Of a stretch of DNA of 42,573 nucleotides, positions 10,498 through 38,200 are shown one piece after another (the first letter of the stretch is position 1; every line of letters starts with the position of its first letter). The position numbers were made by a program, and so were the translations under genes. The stretch comes from a virus. Lineage: Duplodnaviria > Caudoviricetes. The notes under the pieces are model-generated. The model did no database searches, was not told the DNA's origin, and saw only the letters and a program-made list of their open reading frames with translations. The stretch covers positions 1 to 42,573 of IMG/VR virus record IMGVR_UViG_3300044724_011122; one strand, given 5' to 3'.

Positions 10498-10695
10498 ATG
10501 AATATGCCACAAAGAAATAAAAACTCAAATAAGTTAGTCATGGATATTATATCCAAAAAAATGACATCATATGCAGCCACCCAGTGGTTGAAGTCTCCAA
10601 ACAAAAGCCTGGACGATAAAGCACCTTTTGATTTAATGAGCGAAGGGAAGGCTCATGTGGTATATAAACATTTAGTAAAACAACCTCCTCAATGA
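10498..10695 (+). CDS. Stand-alone MbcA/ParS/Xre-type antitoxin C-terminal (toxin-binding, DUF2384-like) domain (65 aa)
   Basis: AATQWLKSPNKSLDDKAPFDLMSEGKAHVVYKHL fits the A..WL..PN..L....P.DL...G...V...L pattern; it has its own GTGTAA element. Confidence 0.72.
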   Translation: MNMPQRNKNSNKLVMDIISKKMTSYAATQWLKSPNKSLDDKAPFDLMSEGKAHVVYKHLVKQPPQ

Positions 10696-12212: not shown

Positions 12213-12213
12213 C

Positions 12214-12720
12214 ATGAGCGAAAAAGACATCAGAATACAAACCCTTAACGGTAAAGGGCTTTCAGAAGATCAAGATAATCCAAATGTTTTAAACTTATCA
12301 AGCTCAACTGAATCGTCTTCAGGTTCAACTAAATTAAGCGACCTGCCTTCGACTTCTTTCCTTGAAGACAGCGACTTATTAGTGCTATCTAGGTCTAGTG
12401 ATAAATCAGGTGTTTATGATCAGTCCTTTTCTATTAGAATCGGTGAAACAACATTATCCCAATCTATACAGTCATCCACCCTGCCTATAAATATACTCTC
12501 AGATGTTGATGTGCAATCCCCAGCGGGCCACCAAGTCCTGGCATATAATGGCTCTCAATGGACCAACTATAGCTGGGATTATTTAATGAAAGACAAGTTC
12601 CAAATCATAGAAGGAGTGGGTCCCCCAACCAGCGACTGTGACGGGGATGAATGGAAAGAAGTAAATAAGATTTATGTTTGTCAAAAAGAAGGTAAAATAG
12701 TATTTTACTTTCAGTCCTAA
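12214..12720 (+). CDS. Small fibre/decoration-type virion protein (168 aa)
   Basis: TKLSDLPS....DSDLLVLSR and LSDVDVQSPAGHQVLAYNGSQWTN are motifs common in phage structural/fibre proteins. Its stop overlaps the convergent stop of the 2036-aa gene. Confidence 0.6.
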   Translation: MSEKDIRIQTLNGKGLSEDQDNPNVLNLSSSTESSSGSTKLSDLPSTSFLEDSDLLVLSRSSDKSGVYDQSFSIRIGETTLSQSIQSSTLPINILSDVDVQSPAGHQVLAYNGSQWTNYSWDYLMKDKFQIIEGVGPPTSDCDGDEWKEVNKIYVCQKEGKIVFYFQS

Positions 12721-18854: not shown

Positions 18855-21800
18855 TTAAGACAAGTTTAAGTGAGTTGTTCCGATTTCAATTGGCTGTACG
18901 TCTTCTTGTATGCCAAGGTAATTGCTCGGAAGCGGGCCGGATAGTTGCCCCCTATAATTTTGTCCGACCCCATACACCGTGCCGTCTGTCTTTAAATATA
19001 ATGTATTGCCGGGTGATGCTGATATTGTAGCAACATCTTGGATCGGGTTACCACTAAGTAATACCTGCTCCGGGCAGAATGTATTACCGCCCAAATTTCC
19101 TAAAGCTCCCAAGCCATCATATCCGCAGGCCCACACCGTGCCATCGCTCTTTAAAAATACGCTGTGCCTACCTCCCGCAGATATTCCAACTACACCACTT
19201 AACTCACCACCAGCACAATTTAATACCTGCACAGGGTTGCCTCGATCCGTGCTCGTCCCGTCTCCCAGCATACCACTATCATTATCTCCGCAGGCCCATA
19301 CCGTTTCATCGCTCTTTAAAAATAGGCTGTGATCTCTTCCCGCAGATATTCCCACTACATCACTAAAACTACTGCCGTCGGTATTTTTGACCTGCACAGG
19401 GTTGCTTCGATTCGTGTTCCTATCCCCGTCTCCTAGTTGGCCGAAAGCATCGCTTCCGCAGGCCCACACCGTGTTATCGTTCTTTAAAAATAGGCTGTGA
19501 TTTCTTCCCGCAGATATTCCCACTACATCACTAAAACTACTGCCGTCGGTATTTTTGACCTGCACAGGGTTGCTTTGATTCGTGGTCGTCCCGTCTCCCA
19601 GTTGGCCATTATCATTCCATCCGCAGCCCCACACCGTGCCATCGCTCTTTAAAAATAGGTTGTGATGACTTCCCGCAGATATTCCAACTACATCCCCAAA
19701 ACTACTGCCGTTGGTATTTAATACCTGCACAGGGTTGCTTCGATTCGTGGTCGTCCCGTCTCCTAGTTGGTTGTAAGCATTCCATCCGCAGGCCCACACC
19801 GTGCCATCGCTCTTTAAAAATAGGCTGTGACTATGTCCCGCAGATATTTCAACTACATCCCCAAAACTACTGCCGTTGGTATTTAATACCTGCACAGGGC
19901 TTCTTCGACTCGTGGTCGTCCCGTCTCCCAGTTGGCCACTATCATTCCGACCGCATGCTAATACTGTGCTATCGCTTTTCAAGAACATTGAGTGGTCCTT
20001 TCCGGAAGATATATCAGCAGATGCCGGTTCATTGATAAATGTAGCATTTACCGTTACATTATCTGAAGGCATCGAGAATTCTTGAGTTCCGTCACCCTTG
20101 TCAGTTAGTGTGACTTCCGATCCAGAGCTATCTATGACCGTTAATGTGTCTAAAATTTTGTCTGAATCTGGGATGACCGTCAAAGTCACCAATTCGTCTT
20201 TTGAGGCACTAGTTTTATTGCTAGATACAGAACCCCCCGTTATGCCAGAATTAATCGTAACATCGTATGTTATTATCGTGAACGATACATCAATAGTAAC
20301 ATTACCCACGGGCATTGTGAAGCTATACCCTGCTCCAGTGTTGGATGTGGCAATATCAGTTCCGTCTGAATCTAGAGAAACAACTACAGATTCTTCGTAT
20401 TCGTTGTTAGGAGTTACCGTAAAAGTAATAGTATCTCCATTTGTTGCCGTACCACTATAATCAGAGAGCGACCCCGATAGTTGAGCATCCCCATTGGTCA
20501 TTGGGTTGTTGATGGATATATCAGAGGTTACTGGGATAAATGAAAACAAAGCATTAATCGTTACATCTGCAGAGGGCATAATGAAAGTATACTCTAGACC
20601 ACTAATAGAATTTAATGTTATTTCATTGGATAAAGAATCTATAACTGTTAATGATGATAGCTGATAACCTGGATTCGGCTGCAATGTAAGTTGAACCTCT
20701 TGTGTTTCATTCGCAGAACCACTAGGTACAGTAGATACAGATCCTCCAGTAATGCTGCCTAAACTAATCGAGTAAGAGTTAAGTTGAATAAACTCAGCAT
20801 TAATTGATATATCGCTTGCGGGCATATCAAATGTTAATGTCCCGTCTGAATTATCTGTATATGAAATATTATTACCTGATGTATCAGTGATCGTGGCAGA
20901 CGAAAAAGCATACCCATTTTGAGTATTAATCGTTAATGTAACTGTTGAAAGTTCAGCAGCGCTATATTTATCCGGTATTACTGATCCACCGACAATACCC
21001 CCGATCAGTGTTATATCGTATGTGACCAAAGAGAAGCTGGCGGTCGCAGTAATATTATCAGCAGGCATTGTAAGGCTGTATGATCCATCTTGATTGGCTA
21101 CTGTGTTTACTGTTTCGTTATTTGAGTTTGTTACTGTAATACCTTCAAAAGAATATGTTTGATTAGGAGTAGGTGTTAATGTAATACTGTTGTTCTGAAA
21201 GGCACTATTGGATGGATCGCTAACGAGAGAGCCGTTAACTATATCTGGGTCAATAATTATATTGTAGCTTGGTAAGCTGCTAAAGCTAGCGCTGATAGTA
21301 ACATCTTCCCCAGGCATAGAGAATATAAAATTTCCGTTATTTAATAGGGTCGGGCTAAATGAAGCCGTGGAGATATCCCCAGTAACCGTGATTGTTTCAA
21401 TTGCATACCCATTTTCAGGCACAGGGGTCAGTGAGACTGTGTCACCTTTAGATGCCGATGGACTATTTGGCTCAATAGAACCATTGGTCATACTTGCGTC
21501 AATCGAGATATTTAAAGCTGCAACGGCAGATGTTGTAGTAGACAAATCAACAACTAATAAATTTCCCTCTGGCTTGTACCCTAAGTTCCCGACTTCATAT
21601 GGCCATAGGCCGATACTTAATTTTGTTGCCCTTATTGGTGTAATAGTGCTTGTTGGGCCATATTTAATATCGGGTAAAAATCCTACGCCAAATATGAATC
21701 CTTCTTGATCTTTTAATAGGGTACTTTCAAACCCAGCATGCAAACTAGTAAATGCATGGGCCTGTAACCCAAAGATGCCATCCACTTGCTTAGCATAAGG

Positions 21801-24800
21801 ATGGTATGTCCCTGTAGTTGTGTACCCTAATTGATTTTGATTGTTTCGCCCAAATGAAAAAACTGTTCCTTCAGTATTTATTAAAACAGTATGATTCCCT
21901 CCGCAATCAATTATGTTAATATTGGCGACATCTATAGCATTTCCCGCTGATTCTGTGCCGCTAGATAAAACCTTAACAGGGTAATTCCTGCTTTCGTTAG
22001 TACCGTCCCCTAGCTGCCCATGCTCATTTGACCCAACACTGTAAACAGTTTTGTCGTTCGATAAAAAGGCCGCATGTTTTATTCCAGAGGAAATATCAAT
22101 TATGGAGCTCAGGGCAATAGCATCACCGCCCTCGACAGAGCCTGACTCAAGTACTTGCACTGGGTCACGCCTATCTAAATTTGTGCCATCACCAAGTTGG
22201 CCAAAATCATTAAATCCGTCGGCCCAAACATTACCATTTATGTCTAGATAATAATTCTGGCTGCCTGAGGCCGTAATAGCGGTAATCGTAGGTAAATTTG
22301 CTATCTGGACTAAAGTATTTTCAGTTCTTGATTTTACAGTGACCGTTATAAAAATATTTGCATTACTAACGGTGCTCAAATTAGCCGTCCCGTCACTATT
22401 GACACCATCCCTTGAGTATATATAATATCGACCAGAAGATGATAGTGTTTTTTGCAACACACCCTCGACACTGTACTCTGATATTGGGCTACCGAAAGAA
22501 TCATTGGATATGTATATATCATCATCTGGGCTAGTAGTGAAATTTGCAGTGTTATTAATAATTATCGTATCACCTTCTTCCACAACAATGCTTGAGCCAT
22601 TCACCACCCCTTCTAAGTCGTCTCCTTGAAGTGCAAGGGACCCATCTATAGTAATGTTGAATTTTCTTCTAGAGTAACCGGGGAATTGATTGCCGTAAAA
22701 GTAAACAGCCCCATTATCATCAAGGAAGATGGAGTGGTTAGATCCTGATGCAGATGCAACTATATTAGATAGACCATTAATTTTAACGGGTTCGTGTGTC
22801 CCAAATTGAGAGAGCACTGGCGAATCACTAAGGAAGTTTCTCTTTAAACTTGACCCAAGTTGATAAACATCCCCAATAGAGTCAATTATCACTATATGTG
22901 ACCCCCCCACACTAATTTCTAGGGAGTTAGAAAAAGGATCAAATAGCTCGCCCTGATTCGTGGATCTTTCTGAACCCAGGACATATCCGCTTTGCATCGA
23001 TTCCGATAATGCAGAACTTGAAGGATTTAAAACTGGAAGCACCTGCCCCTTTGTATCCGTAAAAAAACAAGCTGAGGAGTGTTTATTATTAAAAACATTA
23101 ACAGCATTAAAAATATAAGAGTCATTTTTATTATTGTAATTATATTCTCCAATTGTATTAATTGCTTGCCCTTGCAACATGGCAACTGTTTTACCATCTG
23201 AGCTACTATGCTTAATAATATTAAAATCTTCAGTAAAAGAAGTATTTATTAAATCATTATTATATACCTGTTTATCATCAACAAATTCAAGTTTAGCATT
23301 ATAGCCTGCATGTATAGAATCTTGATAGTTAATGCTGTAAAAAGATTTGTCATAAAGATTAGTTTGGTTAACACCATTTTTTAAGTTTCCATAATCAGGA
23401 CTGTTAATAATTTTAAAGTCTCCATTACTGTCGAGATATGAAATATATTTGGTAATTTTACTATCTGAATAATCATTAAAAGCCCTATCTACCTCGCCCC
23501 AACCGGCGACAGATGTGTGGTCTGCTGAATCTTGACCAAAAGGAATTTTGGTAGCTATATTATAAACTTGATAAAGATCTTGTTTGTTTTGATTTAAATC
23601 TGTATATGTGCCGATTTTAATGGGACTCTTAAAGCTGTCCTGCATTTGATACTCCCACACCATTGATGTTTTAGTGCCTGGGTCGTATTCGTTGCTTATT
23701 AATGATGCCTCTCCGAGTTGAGAGTTCCATATATAGTTTTTAGACTCTGGCGCAAATGCGGTCTTGGCTCTTTTAATGGGGGCGATGCCTAGGCTCCAGC
23801 TATTATTAACTGAATCCCATATATATATCTCCGTACTACCCTCTGTCGGCCATTGTGAAAAATCGCTTCGATCTTTAAAGTTAAAGATATCAGGGGATGG
23901 ATTGGCACTGCAAGACATAAACACTCCATCCCTGCTGACCTGAGAATCAAATAATCCTAATCTGGTTTCAGATACAGGTTGAAATATTTTATTGCCAGAA
24001 GCATCAATACTGATTTGTTGAAAATTAAGAGTCGACCCGTACACAGCAGAGACGTCTCCCGAATTTAAACCATAAGTAGTGATCCGCCCACACCTAACAG
24101 CGCTAGGCACGGAATAATCTGGTTCTGATATTACAATTTTATTATCTGGACAAATATATACTTGATGGCCAAATCTGCCAGCAGTAACCCTGGAAAAATG
24201 AGGGTATATTTTTTGGTAAGATTTGAAATATGCAGAAGATTCGCTCACCCCAAAGCTAGACTCTCCTATACCGTGCAAGGATTGATCTGTTTTTAAGACC
24301 TGCCCATAATAATGGGTGTTGTTGCTAGCAGTTTGATGCAACTCGGCGTTAAGGGCATCATTCATCACGAAAACTTCTCTATCTGCTACCAGATTGCCTT
24401 CTGCGTCATTATAATAAATTGACCTATAGTCGCCTTGCTGGCTTTTCTCGGTTGGGTTTGTGGGCCAGCCTAATGACCAGAGGCTATCATCTGATTTAAT
24501 CAAGTACAGGGCATTTCCAGTGGCACTCACCTTGCTTACCGCAAGCCCTGAATTATTTACCAGTTTTTCAAATCTATAAGAGTATCTAAAGGTTCCACCC
24601 AGTGAAGTAGATCTAGTTGTCTTGCACCATAAGCTGCCATCTGTTTTAATAATAAACAAATGCCTGCCGTCACTTGATGTGAATACAGATTGATTGTTGT
24701 TATTGCTCGAATCAATTTCAATAGGTGAATGATTATTTAGTAAGCCAGTTAATCCTGCAATTTTTCCAGAACTGTCATCTCCGAGGCCGAAAAGGGTATT

Positions 24801-27800
24801 GTCACTAGTAATATAAAACAATACACCCTGGCCGGCTGCGAAACTGATAACATCATCTGCAATCTTTATTGAATCAGAGCTCCATTGAGCTTCTCCTCCG
24901 TTGGTGCCCAGTTGGCTGTAAAGATTGGAGCCCCTTCCCCATAAGGTATTATCATCTTTGAGGTAATATAAATTTCCGTCCACTATAACTGCATCCGACA
25001 CATTTTGAGCTTCAATTTTATGCCAAAAGAAATTGGCGTTATAAGTCCATGTATTGCTACCTGTCGAGAATGTAGAATTATACCTGCTTGATATTTCTCC
25101 AAAATAATTACTTCCGGACCCCCATAGGCTACCGTCGTTTTTGATGATTACTAAATTGAAAGAAGGGTGCTCAAACGAATTATCAAAGCTCGATATATTA
25201 TCTTTACTAAATCTTCCAATATAAGATACTTTACTAATATTATCTAGGATTTCTGTGCCTGTTCCATCAATATATGATATCGGTTGAAGGGTTCCTATTT
25301 CTGATTCAGTATTCCTTTGATATTTATCGGCATCTATTGTTCCCCATGTATTATTGCCATATCCGGCCAGCTTCCCCTCGCTAGTCACTATGAAATTATC
25401 GGAAAAATCAGATACAGTTATCCCGTTGTCAAAGGCACTAGGCGGCGGAGTTAGCATCTTAGATGCGGTTTTGTGAGATGCATTATTAAAGTTATCCATT
25501 GGGCTTGCATCCGATACTAAGCTAAAGCTATCATTTGGTGCGCTTCTACTTAAGCCTATCACTCCAAGATGCTGGTCTGTGTGCAAAAATGCTGAAACAA
25601 AATATGCGCCTCCATCCCATTTGTAATAAACACAATAGCCGCCTCCTGGAGCCCCAACTAGTAGGCCAGAACCGTCAGCAGAAATCGATACTGAGTGGCC
25701 GAACTCATCTGAATCTCTTGCCGCATAATTAGCCCACTCAAATTCAACATCATCCGGGTCAAAATCAAAGCAAGACAATGCAGGGCCTCTTTGTACGTAT
25801 TCCCCAGTTGACCTATCGTAGATATAGACTTTATTTTTAGACGAGTTACCTATCGCTATTAACAATCCGTCTTCGCTCAAATCGAAAGAAGTAGCTTTAT
25901 CAGCATAAATATGTTTTGTTATCTGCCCTAAATATGTATAGTCATATTCCTGGCTTGGGTTATCCAGCTTGCGCCAATCTGTATTATGTTCAATTTTGAT
26001 TACCTGACTTTCTTCGATAGCCTTTGCATTATCTCTTGCCGAACCAGATCCAGTTACTTTGGTATACCCGGCAGAATTTAGCGAAAGTGTGTCAAGGGAA
26101 TTTGCCTCAGATGTTCTAATGTCATCGGTTTGATACAAAACCTCATAACTTAAACTGGTAAGCCTGGGTAATTCAATATAAGAGCTAGACAGCTCAATTG
26201 GGGTAGGCAAACTGAGCCCGATTGTTTGAGCTTCTTGTAGGTAATCCAAGAAACCATCTCCGTCTAAATCATCAATATCAGATATGACGGATGTTGGCCT
26301 GGTTTGCGAGACAGGGAGGTACAGTGATGTTCCATCTTGAGAGGCTGTTATTTCAACTGAGCCACTATTTTTTAATAACATTTTATCTCCATCAATCTCA
26401 ATAATGGAAGGGTCGCTAGTTGAGTATGTAATTGGCAGCCCAGTATTAGAAGATGTGCTGGTAGAGTATGAGTATGCAGCAAGTTGAACATCTCCACCTG
26501 AAACATAATAAGAAGAATCTAAAGTAAAGTCAAATATACTTTGGCTGTACTGCACCGCCGCTGTAACATTAGCTGTTATGGATATATTTTCTGCCGGAAG
26601 AAAGTTTTCGTTTCCATCTTGTGAGGCTTCTATTGTGAATTGACCTTCGGATAAAAGCATTATGGTGTCTCCAGAGAATACACCGGTATCGATTTCCTTA
26701 AAATCAATAATCGTGCCTGATCCACTCGTGATACTATATGTAACAGGTAAGCCGGATGAGGATGATGCTTGTAATTGGTATTCTGATAATGCTAAGTTGA
26801 GGTCACTAATTGCATCAAAAGTGATAACTTGAGGCTGTTGGTATGGATGAGGATCGATTGAATCCATGACTCCATCACCATCCGAGTCTCTATCTTGAGC
26901 AGTAATGCTTTGAGTTAAACTATCCGCTGGTAAAAACTTAGAGTTGCCAGGTTGACTTGCTGTAATATCAAAATCACCAACACCTAAGATAGTAAGCTTG
27001 TTTCGGTCAGTGATTGCTCCAATTAATGGGTCGGAGCTCGCAAATTCCACATTCAGTCCAGAATCAGAGAATGCGGATAAATATATAGTATCACCAATAT
27101 AAATATCTGATAAATCTTGGTTGGCATTCCACTCAAGTGTTTGTGATGTTTTCTGTCCAAATATTAATTGAGCAGAAGATATAGTTGCTGTAAGGTTATA
27201 CGATGGGGCATCGGCCACTAATGTGAGGGTAATATCTCTCGGGGGCATTCTGAACGAGAAACTGGGAAAATTCGATGAATCATTTAGAATAGCTGCAGGC
27301 TCCCCATCTGCTTGATATATCCAATGTAAGAATTCTGTACCAGGAGCAATGTTGGTAAGTGAAACCGTAACTTCTTCATCGTAACTCTTAACACCATCTC
27401 CTGAAACATCAGCTATTCCATCAATACCAATAACTGTAGCAGTGTATTCGGCTACAACAAAATTAGCCCTAATTACCGTGTCTTGATTTGGTACTATAAA
27501 TGTTGGTTTTTTGTCAGTTGTATCAAGGGTCGGGATTGATGCTCCAGCTGTCAGAATCTCCCATGTATCAAGTTCGTACCCGTTTACAGGAAGGGCGGTT
27601 AGCTGTATGCTATCTCCTGCCTCTTTACGTGCAGATCCATAGACTAGTCCAAAATTTTCGTCGCTTGATATTGCTTCTATATATGATGTTATTTTGCTAT
27701 AATTAAAGTTGAGGACTACATTTTGATCGGGCATAGTAAGGCTTAAAGCTTCATCCTGACTGAGGATATTAATCTCAGTACTAGTCCACCCATTAAAATT

Positions 27801-29213
27801 ATAGCTTGGGTCGGCGCTTTCTGCCGTAACTGCAAAAGTGTCTCCCGCCATAAAAGTCCCAGATAATATAAGCTTGTCATTCCCTATGTAACCGATCCCA
27901 TTGTCAGTCTTAGAATAACTAATCACCACAGAGTATTCATTGCTTTGAAAAATAGGTTTAATGGAGACGTCATTTGGGGGCATTACAAATGTAAGGTCAG
28001 GATCTGATGTTTGAGCTGCCGAAAGCGATATTCCTTCAACTTCCCAACTTACAAAAGTGTATTTGCTGTCAGAAGGGTTCGGAGATAAGGACACTAAGCT
28101 TTGGTAGTCCTTTAAGCCCCCGCCTGAAGCAGAGCCCTCGATAGAGTCAATGACATTGACCGAGTATTGTAAGGCTGTAAAAACACCTTCAATCTCGACA
28201 GACTTTTGGGGCATTGTGAATACACCAATTGAGGCTATATTGGTTTGACCTATACTGTCAACCAAGGACTGATCATTATTTTCAAAAATATTAACATCGC
28301 CGCTTTGCCAGCCCTCAAATTTATACCCAGCTTTTGGCTCAGCAATGATAATAACTTCTTGCTTTTCTGAGTATATCCCGAAACCTGTATCCTGAGTAAT
28401 TCCAGCATCTGGATTTTGGTTTAAAAACTTTACACCATAATTCGCTTGACCTGAATCAATGAAATTGTAAGATGGAGTAATGCTTACATGGTGCTGAGGC
28501 ATTGAGAATGTAATGCTTGTAGATTTAGCCTCTGATTCAGTGAGATTTAAATCATTAGTGATCCACCGATCAAAAACTCTTTGATATCCAGCTGTAGCTT
28601 GCAGGGTGATTTGTGTCCCAGGAAGATATCCTTTGTAAGAAATATCTTCTCCATTTTGGGTCTCAGTACCTTCGGAGGAATCTGTATTAATTGTTAAAAA
28701 TGCAAATCTACCAATAGTATTGTCATTATCGTTTAAATCTACGGAGGAGTCTATACCATCTCCGTCACGATCTATGCCAGTTGCAGACACCTGAACAAAA
28801 GTATTGCCAAGATTATTTAAATCTATACAATCGTTGTCATTGAAGCAGATATATGAGCCATCCATAGACTGGATAGCCTTAGTGATCCCGTCAACTGTAA
28901 TTAATTGGCTAATATAAAATGTTGCATCATGAATCGACCGAATTGCATATCGGTAGCCCTCTTGATCGTAAATATATTTAAACCCTGGATCAGGCTGATG
29001 TATGCTGTAATCCTTGTCGTTAAATATTCCGTAATCAGGCCCAATATAGTCAGATTCTTGACCTGGTTCATACCCTTGGTTTTTGTAGCTATTTTTTTCT
29101 GTATGTTTATACCAAAGCTGTCGTCCGTTAACTTTAAAAACATTAACTGTATTGCCATTAAATGTGGACGAATCTAGTGCAGATATATCAAAATTAAAAT
29201 TATTAGTGGCCAT
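18855..29213 (-). CDS. Giant adhesin-like protein (3452 aa): InlB-B/Ig-like repeats, DxDGDG motifs, FG-GAP and RCC1 propellers, C-terminal RCC1 propeller
   Basis: N-terminus is homologous to that of the 3680-aa protein. Many ...GY.F..W...F.MP..DV repeats, SSSGLPVTY-type Ig-like repeats, DRDSDGDG motifs and seven C-terminal RCC1-like blades. Confidence 0.85.
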   Translation of the reverse strand: MATNNFNFDISALDSSTFNGNTVNVFKVNGRQLWYKHTEKNSYKNQGYEPGQESDYIGPDYGIFNDKDYSIHQPDPGFKYIYDQEGYRYAIRSIHDATFYISQLITVDGITKAIQSMDGSYICFNDNDCIDLNNLGNTFVQVSATGIDRDGDGIDSSVDLNDNDNTIGRFAFLTINTDSSEGTETQNGEDISYKGYLPGTQITLQATAGYQRVFDRWITNDLNLTESEAKSTSITFSMPQHHVSITPSYNFIDSGQANYGVKFLNQNPDAGITQDTGFGIYSEKQEVIIIAEPKAGYKFEGWQSGDVNIFENNDQSLVDSIGQTNIASIGVFTMPQKSVEIEGVFTALQYSVNVIDSIEGSASGGGLKDYQSLVSLSPNPSDSKYTFVSWEVEGISLSAAQTSDPDLTFVMPPNDVSIKPIFQSNEYSVVISYSKTDNGIGYIGNDKLILSGTFMAGDTFAVTAESADPSYNFNGWTSTEINILSQDEALSLTMPDQNVVLNFNYSKITSYIEAISSDENFGLVYGSARKEAGDSIQLTALPVNGYELDTWEILTAGASIPTLDTTDKKPTFIVPNQDTVIRANFVVAEYTATVIGIDGIADVSGDGVKSYDEEVTVSLTNIAPGTEFLHWIYQADGEPAAILNDSSNFPSFSFRMPPRDITLTLVADAPSYNLTATISSAQLIFGQKTSQTLEWNANQDLSDIYIGDTIYLSAFSDSGLNVEFASSDPLIGAITDRNKLTILGVGDFDITASQPGNSKFLPADSLTQSITAQDRDSDGDGVMDSIDPHPYQQPQVITFDAISDLNLALSEYQLQASSSSGLPVTYSITSGSGTIIDFKEIDTGVFSGDTIMLLSEGQFTIEASQDGNENFLPAENISITANVTAAVQYSQSIFDFTLDSSYYVSGGDVQLAAYSYSTSTSSNTGLPITYSTSDPSIIEIDGDKMLLKNSGSVEITASQDGTSLYLPVSQTRPTSVISDIDDLDGDGFLDYLQEAQTIGLSLPTPIELSSSYIELPRLTSLSYEVLYQTDDIRTSEANSLDTLSLNSAGYTKVTGSGSARDNAKAIEESQVIKIEHNTDWRKLDNPSQEYDYTYLGQITKHIYADKATSFDLSEDGLLIAIGNSSKNKVYIYDRSTGEYVQRGPALSCFDFDPDDVEFEWANYAARDSDEFGHSVSISADGSGLLVGAPGGGYCVYYKWDGGAYFVSAFLHTDQHLGVIGLSRSAPNDSFSLVSDASPMDNFNNASHKTASKMLTPPPSAFDNGITVSDFSDNFIVTSEGKLAGYGNNTWGTIDADKYQRNTESEIGTLQPISYIDGTGTEILDNISKVSYIGRFSKDNISSFDNSFEHPSFNLVIIKNDGSLWGSGSNYFGEISSRYNSTFSTGSNTWTYNANFFWHKIEAQNVSDAVIVDGNLYYLKDDNTLWGRGSNLYSQLGTNGGEAQWSSDSIKIADDVISFAAGQGVLFYITSDNTLFGLGDDSSGKIAGLTGLLNNHSPIEIDSSNNNNQSVFTSSDGRHLFIIKTDGSLWCKTTRSTSLGGTFRYSYRFEKLVNNSGLAVSKVSATGNALYLIKSDDSLWSLGWPTNPTEKSQQGDYRSIYYNDAEGNLVADREVFVMNDALNAELHQTASNNTHYYGQVLKTDQSLHGIGESSFGVSESSAYFKSYQKIYPHFSRVTAGRFGHQVYICPDNKIVISEPDYSVPSAVRCGRITTYGLNSGDVSAVYGSTLNFQQISIDASGNKIFQPVSETRLGLFDSQVSRDGVFMSCSANPSPDIFNFKDRSDFSQWPTEGSTEIYIWDSVNNSWSLGIAPIKRAKTAFAPESKNYIWNSQLGEASLISNEYDPGTKTSMVWEYQMQDSFKSPIKIGTYTDLNQNKQDLYQVYNIATKIPFGQDSADHTSVAGWGEVDRAFNDYSDSKITKYISYLDSNGDFKIINSPDYGNLKNGVNQTNLYDKSFYSINYQDSIHAGYNAKLEFVDDKQVYNNDLINTSFTEDFNIIKHSSSDGKTVAMLQGQAINTIGEYNYNNKNDSYIFNAVNVFNNKHSSACFFTDTKGQVLPVLNPSSSALSESMQSGYVLGSERSTNQGELFDPFSNSLEISVGGSHIVIIDSIGDVYQLGSSLKRNFLSDSPVLSQFGTHEPVKINGLSNIVASASGSNHSIFLDDNGAVYFYGNQFPGYSRRKFNITIDGSLALQGDDLEGVVNGSSIVVEEGDTIIINNTANFTTSPDDDIYISNDSFGSPISEYSVEGVLQKTLSSSGRYYIYSRDGVNSDGTANLSTVSNANIFITVTVKSRTENTLVQIANLPTITAITASGSQNYYLDINGNVWADGFNDFGQLGDGTNLDRRDPVQVLESGSVEGGDAIALSSIIDISSGIKHAAFLSNDKTVYSVGSNEHGQLGDGTNESRNYPVKVLSSGTESAGNAIDVANINIIDCGGNHTVLINTEGTVFSFGRNNQNQLGYTTTGTYHPYAKQVDGIFGLQAHAFTSLHAGFESTLLKDQEGFIFGVGFLPDIKYGPTSTITPIRATKLSIGLWPYEVGNLGYKPEGNLLVVDLSTTTSAVAALNISIDASMTNGSIEPNSPSASKGDTVSLTPVPENGYAIETITVTGDISTASFSPTLLNNGNFIFSMPGEDVTISASFSSLPSYNIIIDPDIVNGSLVSDPSNSAFQNNSITLTPTPNQTYSFEGITVTNSNNETVNTVANQDGSYSLTMPADNITATASFSLVTYDITLIGGIVGGSVIPDKYSAAELSTVTLTINTQNGYAFSSATITDTSGNNISYTDNSDGTLTFDMPASDISINAEFIQLNSYSISLGSITGGSVSTVPSGSANETQEVQLTLQPNPGYQLSSLTVIDSLSNEITLNSISGLEYTFIMPSADVTINALFSFIPVTSDISINNPMTNGDAQLSGSLSDYSGTATNGDTITFTVTPNNEYEESVVVSLDSDGTDIATSNTGAGYSFTMPVGNVTIDVSFTIITYDVTINSGITGGSVSSNKTSASKDELVTLTVIPDSDKILDTLTVIDSSGSEVTLTDKGDGTQEFSMPSDNVTVNATFINEPASADISSGKDHSMFLKSDSTVLACGRNDSGQLGDGTTTSRRSPVQVLNTNGSSFGDVVEISAGHSHSLFLKSDGTVWACGWNAYNQLGDGTTTNRSNPVQVLNTNGSSFGDVVGISAGSHHNLFLKSDGTVWGCGWNDNGQLGDGTTTNQSNPVQVKNTDGSSFSDVVGISAGRNHSLFLKNDNTVWACGSDAFGQLGDGDRNTNRSNPVQVKNTDGSSFSDVVGISAGRDHSLFLKSDETVWACGDNDSGMLGDGTSTDRGNPVQVLNCAGGELSGVVGISAGGRHSVFLKSDGTVWACGYDGLGALGNLGGNTFCPEQVLLSGNPIQDVATISASPGNTLYLKTDGTVYGVGQNYRGQLSGPLPSNYLGIQEDVQPIEIGTTHLNLS
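19122..19955 (-). repeat. Array A: about five tandem near-identical 165/168-bp RCC1 repeat units
   Basis: The ccgca anchor recurs at 19123, 19288, 19456, 19621, 19786 and 19951. Sampled GC is about 51% (19621-19800) versus about 25-38% in sampled flanking lines. Confidence 0.95.
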
Positions 29214-29229
29214 ACCTACTATATTACAC
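29214..29229 (-). promoter_or_regulatory. Putative phage late promoter element upstream of the 3452-aa gene
   Basis: Minus strand reads GTGTAATATAGTAGGT-ATG; a second TGTAATATA overlaps the upstream stop codon. Confidence 0.7.
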
Positions 29230-29245
29230 GTATATCTAACATATA

Positions 29246-32200
29246 TTACAAAGAAAATCCAGTAGCAATGGCGCTAATTGATGTGTTTCCAATTGTGCCG
29301 TCTCCGTATTGTCCATACCCTCCGTGGCCACAACCGTATATAGTGCCATCACTTGCTAGAAATAAAGAATTATATACTCCAGCCTCTATCTGAACAATGC
29401 CCTGTAGTGGATTGCCACTACTGTCTACAACTCTTGTAGCATAGGAAGCATGTGTTCCTGTGTTGTTGCCATTCCCTAGTTCTCCCCACACGTTTCTTCC
29501 TAAGCTCCAGACTTCATTAGAGCTATCTAGAAATAAAACATGTTGATTACCTGCTTCTATGGCTATGATATTTGATAGTTTATCTGTACTATTGATCATA
29601 ACATCGACAGGGATGTTAGAACTGCTACCACTGCCACCATTACCCAGTGCCCCATAAGTATTGTCACCAAAAGCTTTTACCGAACCATCGTCTATAAGTA
29701 GATAGCTAATCGACTCTCCGGCTGCGGCAGCGACAACAAAACTAGATAAATAATTCGCGCTATACCCTACACTGTAACCGCCCGATTCAAGCACGCGGAC
29801 CGGATACTCAATATTACCCGATCCAGAATAACCAAGACCTAATTGACCTGAGTAAGTGCTCCCTTGGGCCCATGCGCTACCGTCGCTTTTTACATATAAT
29901 GAGTAAGAAGACCCAGCTGCTACATCCACTGCATCTTCAAGCTCATAATAATAGTCATCAGAACCTTGGATGTTTGTATGGTATTGGGGCCTTGAGCTAG
30001 AGTGGGTAATATACAGTGGCGTGCTTAGTTTGTCAAGTGTAGTTAAACTTATTTGTTGATTGGAGTTATTTCCGACTCCCAGAACTCTTCCTGATGACTC
30101 AAGAAATAAAACATGAGATAAGCCCGTACTTATTTTAGTAACATTGCCAAGGACACCATTGGTACCAAATTCAACAGGAGCTGCATACTGCTCTGATGTT
30201 GAAGTGGACCCCCTGCCGAGCTGCCCTTGTAAATTTGCTCCTACACCCATGACAGTGCCATTATTTTTCAGAAACATTGTGAAATTGGGACCGCTATTTA
30301 TCGATACGATATCAGTAATAGGAACATCGGTGTTTACTGAAGCAAATCCACTAAGTAAGCAAGCTGAAGGAGTCCAAATACCTTGACTGTTCGGGCCATT
30401 CTCAACCCCCATTGATAAAGCATAGTTTGTGTTGTTGCCTGCAGCAAACGGAGTTCCATTATTTTTTAGTACGATATTGAAATCTGTTCCGCTAGCCAAA
30501 CGATCAGATATAGTTGGTGCAGGAATGACTTTGAATGTGACGTCTATTGAAACCTCTGAAGCTGGCATGTTTAAAGAATAATGTAAATTCATCGTGTAAG
30601 TCGTGGCAATAGGATTGCCAGATCCATCGTTGACAGTAAAAGTATCAATTTGGTAACCTTCGTTTGGCAAAATGCCTATTTTTAAAGTTTCGCCTTCGTA
30701 AAAATAATTTCCATATGTAGAGTAATCTATATGAGCCCCTCCATTAGCCCCTGATGTAATTGAAGGTTCGTATAAACCCTCTTCAGTAAAGGTGGCTTTT
30801 GTGGTGACATTTTTATTTGGAATATTAAAAGTCCAAGTTCCATCATTATTATTCGTTAGCTGAACATCGGTTCCATCTGAATCTTCAGCGGTGACCGATG
30901 TTAATGACCATCGATTTTCTGCTGAGACAGTCAAGGTGACAGTGTCACCTTCGTACCCTTTAGATATACTTGAAGTAATTGACCCGCCGCTGTTGGTATG
31001 CAAGCCTTCAATAGAATATACAAATTCAGTAGTATTATTGATTGAGTATTCTGGCTGGGCTCCACCATACGGATAGACATGACTAACATAAAGAAGTTTA
31101 CTATCTGAGTATGCATCAGTCAGCTGTTTGTCGTAATTAGCTCCACACCCCAGTATGGAATTCTCATCATTAAGAAATAGAGTTGTTTGGAGCCCAGCAG
31201 AGATAGCTGTTATATTTTCAAGGGCAGCTCCTGGGCCACTAAAAACAAGGCTTGCATAGGAGGCATCAATTTCAGACCCAGTGCCTAGTTTTCCGGTGTT
31301 ATTTTCTCCTGCCGCCCAAACATTACCATCATTTGTTAAAAAAACACTATAGTCTCTGCCAGCACTGACAGCTGAAATACCTGTAAGAGGAACACCGGGC
31401 TCTGTGATGACTTGAGTAGGGTAATATCTAGTAGTATTGTCCCCCACCCCTAATCGTCCATCTGAATTTCTGCCAAAAGTCCAAACAGTGCCATCAGATT
31501 TCAAAAGAATACAATGGTATTCGCCGGCACTTACAGACACAATATCATTGCTAAAATAAACTTCATCTTCATTTGAATAATCGCCGCTTGATAATACACG
31601 CACAGGGTAGAGCGCCTGGAAGCTCTGATTTTGCCCCACACCTAGCGATCCATAAGCATTTCTTCCTGCAGCCCATACCGAATTATCTGACTTTAAGAAA
31701 AAACCGTTTCTTCCGGCACTTATCATTTGTACATCTTCGAATGGCACCGCATCTCCTCCAGCTACAGATCCGCTAGATAATGTTTGAGTAAAATAATGAA
31801 CAGTAGTAAGAGACCCATAGCCAATTCCACCACCGGTGCCGGAGCCCCAAACTGTGCCATCATTTCTTAATGCAAGAGAAACGTACTGGCCTAAGTCAAA
31901 ACCAACAACATTAGTGATTGGTTCATCTACATCAATCAGCATTTGAACAGGGTATGTTGTCCGGCCAGTTCCAGTAGTAGGCCCAATAGCTGCCCACCCA
32001 CTCCCCGCCTGAGTATCACCAGAAAACCAGAGGGTGTTATCATTTTTTAAGTATGCTATGGAACCATTAACAAGCATATTAGTTCCAGCAATAGCTTTGA
32101 CATTTTGAAAATCTACATCATCCTCATCAAAAGCACTGCCGCTAGATAAAACTTTTACGGGCGCTCCATAGTCTCCATGTATAGGTTGTGTTTTTGCCTC

Positions 32201-35200
32201 GTCATAATAATCTGGAGGGGCTGGAAAATCAAACGTAGAGCCACAGCCTTCAACAGTTCCATCTGTTAATAATCTCAGTGTTATACTGTTATCTACGGCA
32301 AATCCTGCAGATTGAATCGGGGGAAAAGGTAGCCCTACGAAATTAAAGGTCGCAGTAACAATTGCATTATATTCTCCCGTGGTAAATGTATACCCTGTAT
32401 CGTTTGCTTGTGTGACGGTGTAAGTTCCTGAACCAGGGTCATTGATGGTGCTACCAGACTGATTTACAGTGATAGATGCAAGCTCATAGCCGGAGTTAAC
32501 TGACACGGTTAGGGTACATGTTTGTGGTGTACTACTAAATGTATCAAGAGACGATACTACGGTGCCACCACTAATAGATGGGTCAATTGAAACTGATCGT
32601 AATTTAAAATTAAACAATGTAGCCCCTATGTCGACTGAGAAAGGTTTATATGTGCTGTCACCAGCTGTCGCAATAGCTATGTGCACTGTATCCATATCTT
32701 CATGGGCGGATATTAAATCTCCCAATAAAGATGGAGGATTTGTAGCAGAACTTGGGGAATAGGTGTGAATACTATAAGTTGAGCTTAGTCCGGAGGTCAT
32801 GGTGGCATTAAGCTGATATGCCTTGTAAAGCATGAGATTGTCCGTGCTGGAAAATGGCACACTGTTTCCAGTTGTCGGATCTATTAACTCGAAAGATGCT
32901 AAAGAATCATCTGCTCGCCCATCAACAACTTCTGCATATCTTGTAGATTCCACCGCTTTATAGTCCGAGGTTTCTTCTGTGTATGCCTTGATACCAAAAG
33001 TTCCCTGCTCTGATGAATTAAAAGTATAGTTACCTGCTCCATCATCGGTTATTGTTGGCCCTACAGTAACGAGCTCAAATTTAATACTATTCCCTGATGC
33101 TGAGCTTGCGTTGAGCAAAAGGTCTGATCCGGCTGAGATGCTGCTTAAATCTTGATCCCAAGTTATCTCGTCATCTGATTGGTTTGGATATGGATCGTCA
33201 GTGTCGGGAATACCGTCGCCGTCTCTATCGTTGGCTGGATCAATTATATTAATTGATTTAATTACATCAATAGCAGCACTATAAACATCGTCCCCGGGTT
33301 GGTATGCTTTAATATCAGTTGTTCCTTCTATGCCATTTAAAGATAAAGAATTTCCTGAAATTGATCCAAGTGTCTGATCTGTTAGTTCGTAAAACACCGT
33401 CAACCCAGAATCAGATGATGCGTCAAGTGTTAGTGGCGAGTCACTAAATAATACAGATGATAGGTCTTGAGACCATGTAATAACTTGCGACCCCCTAACC
33501 GCACCATTAATGGTGACGTTCGCTGCTGCTAAATTATCTGCATCTCCAGGTTGAGAGGCTACCACGGTAAAAGTACCTAGATCTAAGGCTGTTAATTCTT
33601 TAGTGTTAGAGTTAAAACTAACAACACTGCCTTCTCCGCTAGAAATCAAATACTCAACCTCAAGGCCGGAATCGCAAGTGGCATTTAATGTTATAATGTC
33701 ATCAATAGACATGTTTGATAAATCTTGATCCCAGGTAATAACAGGTGATACCTCAGAATCAATATTAATTGAGCAACTGTAAGGCGGCATTTTAAATATA
33801 ATATATTTAGCTTCCTCTCCATTAAGAACCTCAACCCTGTCGGATTCCTGTTTGTCATAAAAACTTGCAACACCAACATCAGTCAGCAAGCTGGGTAGCG
33901 GTGCACCATACCATTCCTCTAGGTCGACCAACTCAAAAGACCAGCCAGCAAAAAGGCTGCCGGCGTCCATTGATTCTATTAAAATCTTGATCTCTTTGTT
34001 CATTTTTGCCCCACCAGAAGTATCTCCCGAGATTACTCCGCGAGGAGCCCCTTCTACTGTTTTGAATAAATTATATTGGGCACCAACTCCATTAATATTA
34101 ATAATATTAGTAAAATATTTAGTTACATTTAATTTCAATTCCTTGGTTTGCTCATCTAGTAAGCTGGTAGCTGGCTGTGTAGCAAATAAACTAAGTTCTC
34201 CAATATCCATAATTAATAGCTCATCTTTATTCTCGCCCCCAATTATTGCTTTATTTGGGTCAGATACAGAATATGTGATCGGTAGTCCAAATTCTGAGGT
34301 TGCTGTCAATTTAATTATATGTCCAGCTTTAAATCCGGCAGGGTTTTGACTCCAGGAGATTGAGTCGTAAAACTCTTTAAATATCGCTTCTAATGTTAGA
34401 TTGTAAGGAGGCATTGCAAAGCTTATACTGTCCTGTAGTAAATCTATGCTATAATTATTATAAGTTACTATCCATTTAGAAAATTTCCAGTCGTTTGAAG
34501 GTTCGGCAAAAGCATCTACATCATCTCTAAATAAATATCTATTTTTAAATCCATAAATTTTGCCACCGATATCCTCTAGGGTTATGTATTCATCTTCGGT
34601 TTTAGGCTTAAGTTCCCATTTTACTACTATGTCTTCTCCATCACCTCCGGTGCCTCCTCCTGTTTCTGTACCTCCATTTCCTGCAGTTGGTCGACCGCCA
34701 GTCCATGGAATAACATCTCCGTCTGGGGCTTGGTATGGTATGACTTCGAAATCTTCCATACTCATGAGTTGCTGATAGCTATCGGGGTGACATAATAGCG
34801 GTGGAGTTTCGGATGGATTTATTGCACTGGATGAATAATATAAATAACCATTTTTTAAAATAAATAAATGTCCATTTTCTAATCCTTGAGTGTTGACCAA
34901 CTGAATATCGTCAACATCTAAAGCTATTAAGTTTTTTTCGAAATAACCATCAATGAGGTCACCATAAAAGAAGGAAGTTGAGCGAATACTGGGTTCAAAT
35001 ATTTCAGACCGAAAAACATTTCCGTTATTCTTCATGTATGCAACTTGGACATCAGATGCCGTAACTTTGAGTACTTGATCATCGTGCAAAAGAAAGCCGT
35101 CTTTTAGTGCGTCTGCATAATTCTCGGATAGTTTTCCTGATTCATCATCATATCCAGAATACTGAAGATTGCCCTGAGCGTCTACTACCCACAACCTGCT

Positions 35201-38200
35201 CCAGAACCCACTGGATGCTGACAGGGAATTAAATTCATATAAACTGGTGTATACCTCTCCGCTTAATGTCGTAATTGATTCTCTGATTTTATAAAGATGT
35301 GGTTGGCCTGGGTCTGCCTCAGTGTATATTCCTGAATTTTTAGGTAAAGAAAATTTATCAGAAGCATCAAAGTTCCCGTAAAAATATTTTATACCATCGT
35401 GTGTTGAGAATATGATTGACTGAGTGCCTCCACCGCTAAAAGATTTTACATTGTCAAAAATTTTCTTAAACGATGAAGATTGCTCCAGGAAATTAAAATT
35501 CCCCGCGTTTAAGTCTTGCGAAACCTCTCCGATATACCACAAGCTTTGATCTTGCTTTTTGATGACAGCTCTAGTGGGGAGATATTTTGCCCCGTCGCTG
35601 GGCCCAAACTCTGTTCCGCTGATATCCTCTATTTCGCCAGCACTAAATATTTCTACAGGACCTGAGGGCGGTGTTACGGATTTGTCTACCGTATAGTCAA
35701 TTTCAATATTTTTATTAGCTACATCATGGTTGAAATGTCCGGAGGCTAATAAGGATCCATCATCAAGTAAAATTAAGATACAGTTTCGGATTATTACAAA
35801 TTTATTGATTCCCTTTATCGGCGTGGAAGAATCATACATAAACTTACCCTCGATAATGCAATTGAAGTCAGTCTCCCATGCTCCGAAAAGCTTCGCTGAT
35901 TTGACATCAGATAACCCAAGTGAATCAAATTTTATTGAATTAAGATTACTTATATTCATAAAAGGGGCAGAATCAAGACCAAAACGAAACAATCTAGTAG
36001 TTCGATCCGCAAAAGATAGAGTAATAAAATAATTACCATTATAAATAACGAAAGGATGTATTTTTGTGATAAAATTTGCAGCAGGTTCTGGTGCCGTAAT
36101 GTCCCCCCAGTGATTGCCAAAAATTTTATGAGCATTCACGTTATACCATAGTGGGGAGGGAGACCAACTGCTTTCGGTAAGTCTAGTTGCACCCGCATAA
36201 AAAACTCTTTCACTTGAATAATCTTGTATAATTTTACCCGAAGTAAATAAAATAGACTTAGGTTCGTTTTCGTAATCCGTGAAATATGCTGATGATATAT
36301 CTCCTTTATAGTAAAATAAATCTTCAGGTGATACCCCCGACGTATTCGAGTTGACAATAAGTACATCATCTTTATCTTGAAAGTAAAATCTTACCCGACC
36401 AGACCAGGCATTTTTTATACCAGAGACAATATCTCCGTTAGTATAACGCGCAGGAACTGGAGAAGTGGACCCTTGGGTGAAATTATCTGGGTTAAAAAAA
36501 GAGCCCTTCCATTGAGTCCCTAGTCCATAAAGCCTGCCCTCCGTGGTTAATACGTGATAGGCTCCTTCATATCCTCTATAGACTTGCCGAGCTAGGCCAG
36601 TAGATGAGTCTAGTGCGAAGTTAATTTCGTACAACTCGCTGCTTGATGAGGAGGTTGGGGTATAGTCTACTTGAACTAGATTACCAGTATTACCCGGAAA
36701 ATATTCCCCTCCAGGTAAAGTCAGTTCTGAAGAACCTAATTGACCACTAACACCATGACCAACCCCGAATGTACTACCATCAGATTGTATAAACATCGTG
36801 TGATCTGCAGAACTTCCCGCTGTCGCCAAGGCGACATCTTGTAATGTAGATCCATCTTTCGTCACTTGTAATGGGCTCAAACTAGACCCACCCTTCGGTG
36901 AAAGTCCTAGTTGGCCGAAAACATTATGTCCGCAGGCCCACACCGTGCCATCGCTCTTTAAAAATACGCTGTGCCCATTTCCCCCAGATATTCCCACTAC
37001 ATCCCCAAAACTACCGCCGTCGGTATTTAATACCTGCACAGGGTTGCTTCGAGTCTGGGTCGTCCCGTCTCCCAGTACACCACTAGCATTAATTCCGCAG
37101 GCCCACACCGTGTTATCGCTCTTTAAAAATAGGTTGTGATTACGTCCCGCAGATATTCCAACTACATCCCCAAAACTACTGCCGTCGGTATTTAATACCT
37201 GCACAGGGTTGCTTCGATTCGTGGTCGTCGTCCCGTCTCCTAGTTGGCCGAAAACATTATGTCCGCAGGCCCACACCGTGTTATCGCTCTTTAAAAATAT
37301 GCTGTGCCTACTTCCCGCAGATATTCCAACTACACCGCTTAACTCACTACCATCACCATTTAATACCTGCACAGGGTTGCTTCGATTCGTGGTCGTTCCG
37401 TCTCCTAGTTGGCCGAAAACATTATCTCCGCAGGCCCATACCGTTTCATCGCTCTTTAAAAATAGGTTGTGATTACCTCCCGCAGATATTCCAACTACAT
37501 CCCCAAAACTACTGCCGTCGGTATTTTTGACCTCGGCCGGGCTGTATTTGGCTGCATTCGTTCCATCCCCTAATTCGCCAAAAAAATTACGTCCAAATGA
37601 AGACACCGTTCCGTCAGTCTTCAGTAAGACAGTGTTTTCGTAGCCAGCGGATACTTGACTTACATCTTCGATACCAAGTGGAACTGAATTGATAGTCTGA
37701 TTTTGGTAAACGGGATGTGGTGCGGCCCCCAATCCTAAATTATTTACTAGACCTGTACCCCAAACAGTTTTGTCATTTAATAAAAAAATAGTATGATCTG
37801 CTCCAGCGGCTACCGATTTACAGAAAAGTGGCAAAGGGCTATTTGACACCTGAGACACAGAGGAGCTCGTTAAGCCTGTTGGTAAACCTGACTGACCTTT
37901 TATTGTAAATATTTTTTTATCCGACCTGAGAAAAATCGCTTCCCAATTATCGTTACCTGAAGTACCGGTGTCCATTTCTACAACATCAAACTGTATGATA
38001 TTGTATAGTTTGCCTGGTTGCAACTGAGAAAGATTGCCCTCATTATCAAATAGCCAAACTGCACCATCTTGCCTTAAGAATATAGCGGCTGTACCCCCGG
38101 CCCCTATCGCGACTACATTTTTAAATTCTTCATTCCCGTTTTTTATTTCTTTTGCATATAATAGATCTGGGTTGGACCCGAAACCTTTACCAGAAAACAT

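What the first reader, a model, noticed from the sequence alone, without database searches (positions are those of the whole stretch)
19122..37533. Two hypervariable RCC1 repeat arrays shared between different giant adhesin genes: candidate blade-shuffling diversification system
Seen: arrays at 19122-19955 and 36906-37533 are made of the same 165-bp unit and are nearly identical even at synonymous sites, while the rest of the two paralogues is highly diverged. Differences cluster in a few codons per blade: after ISAG (HS, SH, RN, RD, GR, GN, SR, RN, NG), after CG (RNDSG, WNAYN, WNDNG, SDAFG, DNDSG, DNVFG, HNVFG, INASG) and in the GDGTTTNRSN loop. Most changes are non-synonymous. Derived alleles are shared across loci: the KSDETVW unit with its synonymous GTA is identical at 19281-19326 and 37421-37466, it is followed by an ELSGVVG linker in both, and both arrays end with HSVFLKSDGTVWACG. 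Alleles reassort between units, giving mosaics. Known: RCC1/BLIP-II propellers bind protein targets through loops on one face. Inference: ongoing recombination or gene conversion plus diversifying selection yields a combinatorial, antibody-like binding surface for host recognition.
Basis: partly seen in the sequence, partly recalled or inferred. Interest (0 to 1): 0.85.

Follow-up and report, generated by a model that had tools for sequence, protein, structure and literature searches.

The report
Phage propellers sharing one blade pool
Two giant, otherwise unlike genes of a marine phage each carry a predicted seven-bladed propeller whose blades share almost the same DNA scaffold while five positions per blade on one predicted face change fast, which likely lets the virus re-tune what it binds by ordinary recombination and selection, as fungal self/non-self receptors do.

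Summary
Genes B (18855-29213) and C (29246-40288) of an uncultured estuary/marine phage each hold a predicted seven-bladed RCC1 propeller (pLDDT 92, 91). Nine 165/168-bp blades are homogenised across both genes: 92% identical codons at same-residue sites against 37% expected, while the rest of the proteins is 25-34% identical. Blades do not group by gene (AU p=0.0002). Five codons per blade, also the variable ones in 17 other arrays, have dN/dS 3.2-4.3 (p<0.0004); strands 0.2-0.3; the whole unit about 1, so 'mostly non-synonymous' alone says little. A related strain changes the same sites in the unique blades, and a third assembly has one half-blade replaced by another blade's tract. Against: four estuary runs show no variants at contig level, the recombination test weakens to p=0.05-0.06 without the variable codons, and binding, virion location and host are untested. 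No DGR signature. It works like fungal HNWD WD40 repeats; highly repetitive RCC1 propellers are known; I found no paper on this in phages. This scan noted the same pattern on other DNA at least eight times. New variant of a known kind.

The parts
18855..29213 (-). Gene B, 3452 aa: Flg_new_2 (InlB B-repeat-like) spacers, internal divergent RCC1 blades, C-terminal seven-bladed RCC1 propeller
18858..20030 (-). Propeller of gene B: unique blade B0 (5' half), homogenised blades B1-B5, unique closing blade B6 and tail
   Evidence: AlphaFold2 model, seven blades, mean pLDDT 92.1; UVR8 TM 0.84
19122..19955 (-). Homogenised array of gene B: B0 3' half (to 19857), B1 19692-19856, B2 19527-19691, B3 19359-19526 (168 bp), B4 19194-19358, B5 5' half 19122-19193
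29246..40288 (-). Gene C, 3680 aa: same domain kit, homogenised propeller at about residues 815-1200, further divergent RCC1 propellers towards the C-terminus
36689..37846 (-). Propeller of gene C: two unique blades, homogenised C1-C4, unique closing blade
   Evidence: AlphaFold2 model, seven blades, mean pLDDT 90.9
36905..37533 (-). Homogenised array of gene C: C0 linker 37499-37533, C1 37334-37498, C2 37166-37333 (168 bp), C3 37001-37165, C4 36905-37000
19281..19326 (-). 46-nt tract identical to 37421-37466 (KSDETVW allele with synonymous GTA)
12717..18827 (-). Gene A, 2036 aa: third paralogue-like giant gene with divergent RCC1 blades, not part of the shared pool (56% nt to B1)
3480..5354 (-). 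Terminase large subunit: marks the contig as a tailed phage
   Evidence: Pfam Terminase_6N, phrog_2

Best explanation
The two arrays encode predicted seven-bladed RCC1 propellers in two giant, likely virion-surface proteins, and their blades likely evolve as one pool: short-tract recombination (gene conversion) within and between the two genes would keep the scaffold DNA alike and move loop alleles between blades, while selection acts on five codons per blade that are predicted to form one binding face. Shown: the shared scaffold, the mixing of blades across genes, the excess of amino-acid change at unit codons 8, 9, 25, 27 and 28, the same codons differing in a related strain, the seven-blade fold in two models. 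Inferred: that exchange is still going on, that it is done by general phage or host recombination and not by a dedicated enzyme, that the proteins sit on the particle, and that the face binds a host surface molecule. Conversion that keeps seven blades would survive; unequal cross-over that loses blades would likely break the propeller, so diversity would come from allele content, not copy number.
For: Shared scaffold: 92% vs 37% codon identity; between-gene unit identity 0.842 (12 pairs) vs within-gene 0.829 (9 pairs); B blades as one clade rejected, p-AU 0.0002; blades group by genome against the orthologue P0126 (86/80 support, 0 of 500 shuffles as low; weak tree, 34 columns). Mosaicism: 266 of 561 site pairs incompatible, PHI-type p=0.0002 (all sites) and 0.002-0.02 (one site per codon); 10 of 15 pairs of synonymous sites incompatible, Hudson-Kaplan minimum 5 without the variable codons. 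Selection: the five codons were the variable ones in 17 other arrays (mean pN 0.46-0.63 vs at most 0.27 elsewhere); in the window they have dN/dS 3.2-4.3, p 9e-6 to 3.5e-4; strands 0.23-0.30; opposite face 1.0-1.5; 9 of 9 blades differ in their five-site combination. Between strains: in run X5 all 12 changed codons that the table shows in the end of gene B are non-synonymous, 8 of 8 in the fully listed contig, among them codon 8 of blade B0 and codons 25, 27, 28 of blade B6; run X11 shows 9 of these 11 letters too. Ongoing exchange: protein P0123, another JGI assembly, equals gene B's last 180 residues except for six residues where the 5' half of B5 carries B3's alleles; exact matches at the switch points are at most 19 nt, short of usual assembler overlaps. 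Face: strands and turns in the models put codons 8-9 in the A-B turn and 25-28 at the start of the C-D loop, the same end of a meander blade (topology argument, no coordinates seen); codons 8-9 align to the W and R of UVR8's GWRHT motif, whose arginines hold the dimer (PMC5108777, passages). Virion location by analogy: phrog_4219, hit by A, B and C, was found in W70 particles by mass spectrometry (PMC11370258, passage); in a giant-virus record the same kind of shared array sits in two genes with tail-fibre chaperone domains.
Against: No letter variant in either array in contigs of four estuary runs (X1, X3, X4, X6; Logan contigs drop rare variants and X6 is thinly covered). Without the five variable codons the spatial recombination test gives p=0.05-0.06, and 0.06-0.14 without the linker as well. 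P0123 is known only as a protein from one 3.3-kb contig, so an assembly or polishing chimera is not excluded; L001, otherwise identical over 20,403 nt, has a four-blade array with a patchwork junction that looks like an assembly collapse, showing that assemblers do err here. dN/dS rests on 11 partial units and minimal-event counts. Only 12 of 45 residues at the five sites are aromatic or histidine, a polar face. No signal of location, ligand or host was obtained.
Confidence: 0.62

Rival explanations
1. One-off history: a blade was amplified recently, the young propeller was copied into the second gene, and the blades have since differentiated under selection with no continuing exchange (the amplification-and-differentiation cycle of Pereira and Lupas 2022).
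For: Highly repetitive RCC1/BLIP-II propellers are 10% of that paper's set, including local amplifications (PMC9218822, passages and Discussion). Grouping by genome and the higher GC3 of both arrays (0.45-0.47 vs 0.32-0.33) fit a recent common source. Recombination test marginal without the variable codons; no variants in four runs.
Against: Shared alleles lie in different registers (B4 pairs with C1 at codons 18-20 and the linker, with C3 at 28-31; B2/B3 with C0 at 46-47; B3/B4 with C4 at codon 2), which one copy event does not give; 10 of 15 synonymous site pairs are incompatible; P0123 carries a replaced tract.
Confidence: 0.15
2. Homogenisation without diversification: gene conversion keeps the scaffold uniform, and the loop codons differ only because conversions that overwrite a blade's own binding residues are purged, or because loops are unconstrained; nothing favours new variants.
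For: Synonymous divergence is reset by conversion, which inflates loop dN/dS; whole-unit dN/dS is about 1 and the opposite face is near neutral too; the same positions vary in nearly all RCC1 blades; local population looks clonal.
Against: Between strains the unique blades B0 and B6, which are outside the pool at those positions, change at the same codons with 8 of 8 non-synonymous changes in one contig and none in the adjoining 170 nt.
Confidence: 0.16
3. A diversity-generating retroelement mutates adenines in these blades.
For: 49 of 63 variable columns include A; A/G 25 vs C/T 5 on the coding strand. An FGE-sulfatase (CLec-type) domain, a usual DGR target fold (recalled), sits in another giant gene of this phage and in P0126. 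About half or more of the genome is not in hand.
Against: Wobble adenines are as fixed as other bases (7 of 9 invariant vs 13 of 18); many changes do not start from A; no template copy in the window; no RVT_1 match in the window, its 33-kb neighbour record or three complete relatives, 0 of 5. The A/G excess follows from N/D/S/G exchanges.
Confidence: 0.03
4. The arrays or their mosaics are assembly artefacts.
For: Three JGI versions of the B array exist; short-read contigs break in the arrays.
Against: Both frames stay open and close at exactly seven blades; identical protein on two contigs; X1 contigs match individual blades with no difference; longest exact repeat 73 nt; an orthologue has the same layout.
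Confidence: 0.04

Closest known systems
Podospora anserina HNWD/NWD (het-d, het-e, het-r) WD40 repeats (Paoletti, Saupe, Clave 2007, PMC1805685: abstract and Results part 2 read; Chevanne et al. 2010, PMC2873952: abstract read)
   Same: Beta-propeller repeats homogenised within and between genes, grouping by genome rather than by gene, a few codons per repeat under diversifying selection on one propeller face, no dedicated enzyme.
   Different: RCC1 fold, not WD40; no NACHT/STAND or HET domain; a phage, with likely outward-facing proteins; pool of 9 blades in 2 genes vs 69 repeats in 10 genes; repeat number appears tied to seven here whereas it varies widely in Podospora; rearrangement shown by mutants there, only suggested here.
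Highly repetitive beta-propellers amplified from single blades (Pereira and Lupas 2022, PMC9218822: abstract, passages, Discussion read)
   Same: RCC1/BLIP-II propellers with high blade identity, local amplification inside a differentiated propeller, found also in viruses.
   Different: That paper reads them as independent recent amplifications; in its main text 'concerted', 'positive selection' and 'phage' do not occur. Here one pool spans two genes and is mosaic.
Phage RCC1 proteins found in virions: coliphage W70 gp237-239 (phrog_4219; PMC11370258, passage) and Cronobacter phage GAP32 GAP_001 (PMC5259590, passage)
   Same: Same PHROG family as hits to genes A, B, C; detected in particles by mass spectrometry.
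   Different: Single 40-43 kDa proteins; no blade homogenisation or binding role described in the passages seen.
UVR8 and BLIP-II (solved RCC1-type propellers)
   Same: Seven-bladed fold (UVR8 TM 0.84; BLIP-II TM 0.55-0.58 by query); variable codons 8-9 align to UVR8's GWRHT W and R.
   Different: Fixed sequences with one partner each; 26-27% identity.
Diversity-generating retroelements of phages (Bordetella BPP-1 type; recalled)
   Same: Variation focused on a binding surface of a likely receptor-binding protein.
   Different: No adenine specificity, no template repeat, no reverse transcriptase found.

Membership tests
RCC1/BLIP-II beta-propeller | RCC1 repeats above Pfam cut-off | tested here: met
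   PF00415 267.6 and 277.1 bits vs cut-off 21.7
RCC1/BLIP-II beta-propeller | Seven-bladed propeller fold | tested here: met
   Models pLDDT 92.1 and 90.9 with seven blades; B model to UVR8 TM 0.84
HNWD-type concerted repeat diversification (works like) | Repeats homogenised within and between genes, grouping by genome | tested here: met
HNWD-type concerted repeat diversification (works like) | A few codons per repeat with dN/dS above 1 | tested here: met
   Five codons, 3.2-4.3, p<0.0004, positions taken from 17 other arrays; small sample
HNWD-type concerted repeat diversification (works like) | Selected residues on one interaction face | tested here: inconclusive
   Same end of each blade by secondary-structure topology and UVR8 alignment; no coordinates or exposure values available; binding untested
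HNWD-type concerted repeat diversification (works like) | Repeat arrays polymorphic among individuals | tested here: inconclusive
   P0123 and L001 differ only in the array but may be assembly products; no variants in four runs; strain in X5 differs
HNWD/NWD gene family (membership) | NACHT/STAND NTPase with WD40 repeats | tested here: not met
   No NACHT, NB-ARC or HET family in Pfam scan of A, B, C
Diversity-generating retroelement | Adenine-specific variation | tested here: not met
   7 of 9 wobble A invariant vs 13 of 18 other bases
Diversity-generating retroelement | Template repeat and reverse transcriptase | tested here: inconclusive
   None in window or in 5 records, but the genome is incomplete (CheckV 30% for the window)
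Phage receptor-binding/adhesin protein | Part of the virion and binds host surface | not testable with these tools
   Only analogy: phrog_4219 members in W70 particles; weak phrog_20500 tail hit for C, E 3.6e-5

The most novel reading that the evidence does not exclude
A phage keeps a shared library of propeller blades across two giant virion proteins and converts blades into one another during infection often enough to make a combinatorial, reverse-transcriptase-free repertoire of host-binding faces; the same strategy recurs in giant viruses and bacterial surface proteins, making RCC1 propellers a general natural variable-binder scaffold.
Probability: 0.3. Interest if true: 0.75.

Novelty: new variant of a known kind. 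Interest (0 to 1): 0.5.

Why it matters
It would give phages a second route, beside retroelements and cassette inversion, to fast change of a binding surface, using only repeats and recombination, and it names five codons per blade whose role in host range can be tested directly. It also speaks to an open point in propeller evolution: whether near-identical blades are young amplifications or old blades kept alike. The pattern is not rare (18 of 84 other loci that were picked by likeness to this blade hold such an array, 5 of them across more than one ORF), so it is a clear example of a recurring strategy rather than a singular machine.

Tried and rejected
DNA search of annotated phages with array B: no match. 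Scaffold DNA pattern: one IMG/VR locus, the same phage; none in JGI metagenome contigs. Related phages by terminase (80 loci kept of 105): 0 of 5 records searched carry RCC1 (three of them complete), 4 of 5 (two of these the same phage, two with a 499-aa frame), so the giant genes are lineage-specific and no close strain with an assembled array was found. The X4 'joint' 19502 to 19335 is not a duplication: both it and the X1 contig are 198 = 168 + 30 nt, the loop of a k=31 graph round the 73-nt repeat. L001's shorter array was not counted as copy-number variation: four blades, patchwork junction. DGR rejected. Host: no cultured relative above 26% terminase identity; one unnamed MAG contig. N-terminal domain of B: no Atlas hit at 0.9. 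Gene C protein not in the cluster collection under three starts, so no alleles of array C from that source. PMC12906663 was a false hit (RCC1xxx are strain numbers). Literature searches with no paper on RCC1 blade exchange in phages; the library lacks most subscription papers and I opened no supplements. A BLIP-II interface residue list was not found, so no residue-level match to BLIP-II is claimed. L110 was left out of the pooled 17 arrays as a near-duplicate of L109, and the indel column was dropped from the counts. No complex was predicted: there is no candidate partner.
Full report
Setting. The window is a whole 42,573-nt virus record with a terminase large subunit, PhoH, a sigma-like gene and a nuclease. 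A second record of the same phage is identical over 6,142 nt and continues 27 kb to the left, with a capsid-cement-like gene and two more giant Flg_new_2 genes. Sequencing runs that hold the stretch are estuary and marine metagenomes (7 of 17 rows hold half its words or more). The host is unknown. Three giant genes lie head to tail on the minus strand: C (3680 aa), B (3452 aa), A (2036 aa), all built of Flg_new_2 spacers and RCC1 repeats.

Observation. TRF finds only two long-period arrays, 19121-19955 and 36905-37526, both of period 165, 82-89% identical to each other. They are blades B1-B5 (plus half of B0) and C1-C4 (plus the C0 linker). 28 of 56 codon columns hold a single codon in every unit, or differ in none (table). 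Among 635 cross-gene codon pairs with the same residue 92.4% are the same codon; codon usage predicts 37.1%, and six other RCC1 blades of the same genes give 32.4%. Outside the arrays B and C are 25-34% identical. The window's version of gene B is on two contigs, and contigs of run X1 match blades B2-B5 and parts of C without a difference at about the depth of the flanks. The longest exact repeat between blades is 73 nt, so ordinary reads can span it; no long read was seen.

Structure. Both regions model as seven-bladed propellers (pLDDT 92.1 and 90.9); the B model matches UVR8 at TM 0.84 and BLIP-II at 0.55-0.58. In each, the homogenised blades sit between unique opening and closing blades. 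Unit codons 8-9 form the A-B turn and 25-28 begin the C-D loop; in a four-stranded meander these lie at the same end, while codons 16-18 and the linker lie at the other. This is a topology argument, as I had no coordinates. Codons 8-9 align to W and R of UVR8's GWRHT motif, and R286 and R338 of that motif hold the UVR8 dimer (PMC5108777, passages).

Selection. To avoid choosing sites after the fact I took them from other arrays: of 85 loci examined (the window, 7 viral loci, 77 metagenome loci found with this blade) 19 hold three or more blades at 80% DNA identity, and in the 17 pooled non-window arrays codons 8, 9, 25, 27, 28 stand out (mean pN 0.46-0.63, all others at most 0.27). In the window these five codons carry 20 minimal non-synonymous events on about 12 sites, against 19 synonymous events on 37-47 sites: ratio 3.2-4.3, p 3.5e-4 to 9e-6. 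Strands give 0.23-0.30, the rest of that face 1.2-1.6 (not significant), the opposite face 1.0-1.5. Conversion resets synonymous sites and can inflate such ratios, so an outside check matters: a related strain in run X5 differs at 11 letters in the last 110 nt of gene B and at none in the next 170 nt; these make 8 of 8 non-synonymous codons, three of them codons 25, 27, 28 of the unique blade B6; of the 10 differences in a second contig 6 are listed and make 4 non-synonymous codons, one at codon 8 of blade B0. Run X11 shows 9 of the 11 letters at low depth.

Exchange. Units are as alike between genes (0.842) as within (0.829); holding B's blades together is rejected (p-AU 0.0002). The orthologue P0126 from a related phage (35% in the N-terminal part) has its own blade type, and blades group by genome (support 86/80 on 34 columns, 0 of 500 shuffles as low). 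Sites are widely incompatible (266 of 561 pairs) and compatibility is local (p 0.0002; one site per codon 0.002-0.02), but without the five variable codons p is 0.05-0.06. 10 of 15 pairs of synonymous sites are incompatible. Cross-gene sharing falls in several registers (table), which a single domain copy does not explain. For present-day exchange the best sign is P0123, a third assembly whose last 180 residues equal gene B's except for a tract where B5's first half carries B3's six alleles; exact runs at the switch points are 19 nt or less. It is one protein from one short contig. L001 is identical to the window over 10,076 + 10,327 nt and differs only in a four-blade array with a patchwork junction; I read it as a probable collapse. 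In four estuary runs no array variant shows at contig level, which counts against fast turnover, though such contigs drop rare variants.

Mechanism. Most likely, general recombination between 75-91% identical blades converts short tracts within and between the genes; selection keeps seven blades and the strand residues and favours change at the five face codons. A DGR is unlikely: wobble adenines are as fixed as other bases (7 of 9 vs 13 of 18), there is no template copy in the window and no reverse transcriptase in 5 records, although the genome is incomplete. That B and C are on the particle is inferred from gene context and from relatives: phrog_4219 proteins were found in W70 virions (PMC11370258, passage) and an RCC1 protein in GAP32 virions (PMC5259590, passage); locus L104, a giant-virus record, has two neighbouring genes with Peptidase_S74 chaperone domains whose RCC1 arrays are 74-82% identical to each other while other aligned parts are 66-75%.

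Comparison and novelty. It works like the Podospora HNWD repeats (PMC1805685, abstract and part of Results; PMC2873952, abstract) but is not a member of that family (no NACHT domain). Repetitive RCC1 propellers are known (PMC9218822), there read as recent amplifications; that remains the main rival for the history. Six searches found no paper on blade exchange in phage RCC1 proteins. Earlier notes of this scan describe the same pattern in other phages and giant viruses; they are unchecked leads and gave me two papers to read. What this locus adds is a pool shared by two very distant giant paralogues, the strain-level changes at the same codons, and a candidate converted allele. Verdict: real, new variant of a known kind, interest 0.5.

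Noticed in passing
L104:1970-3105 and 9208-10373: Giant-virus record (GC 24%) with two adjacent fibre-like genes (Peptidase_S74 C-termini) whose RCC1 arrays are 74-82% identical across genes and vary at the same five codons; an independent case.
   Followed up: partly
L107:2695-13381 (same phage, left of the window): Two more giant genes with Flg_new_2 repeats; the second also has an FGE-sulfatase domain and divergent RCC1 blades, so the phage has at least five such genes.
   Followed up: partly
window 19113-19856 and 36920-37498: Both arrays are richer in G+C (49-50%, GC3 0.45-0.47) than their genes (40%, GC3 0.32-0.33), which may point to a foreign source blade or to biased conversion.
   Followed up: no
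window 22370 to 29279 and 32734 to 29238: Run X3 has contigs joining these places near the B/C gene boundary with extra letters between (depth 16.8 and 5.7; table 5c); chimeras or gene-fusion variants, not tested.
   Followed up: no
window 10692-12720 (+): Two genes on the opposite strand (506 and 168 aa) between PhoH and gene A; the smaller has a weak tail-fibre PHROG hit (E 4.7e-4); absent from the other terminase loci.
   Followed up: no
L002-L007, L089-L101: Low-GC phage records with large RCC1 proteins of 147-bp period whose length differs between otherwise alike loci (1345 vs 1598 aa in L002 vs L003).
   Followed up: no
window 32509-32510: Only letter difference listed for runs X1, X3, X4, X6 over 18.7 kb: two adjacent changes in one X6 contig.
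   Followed up: no
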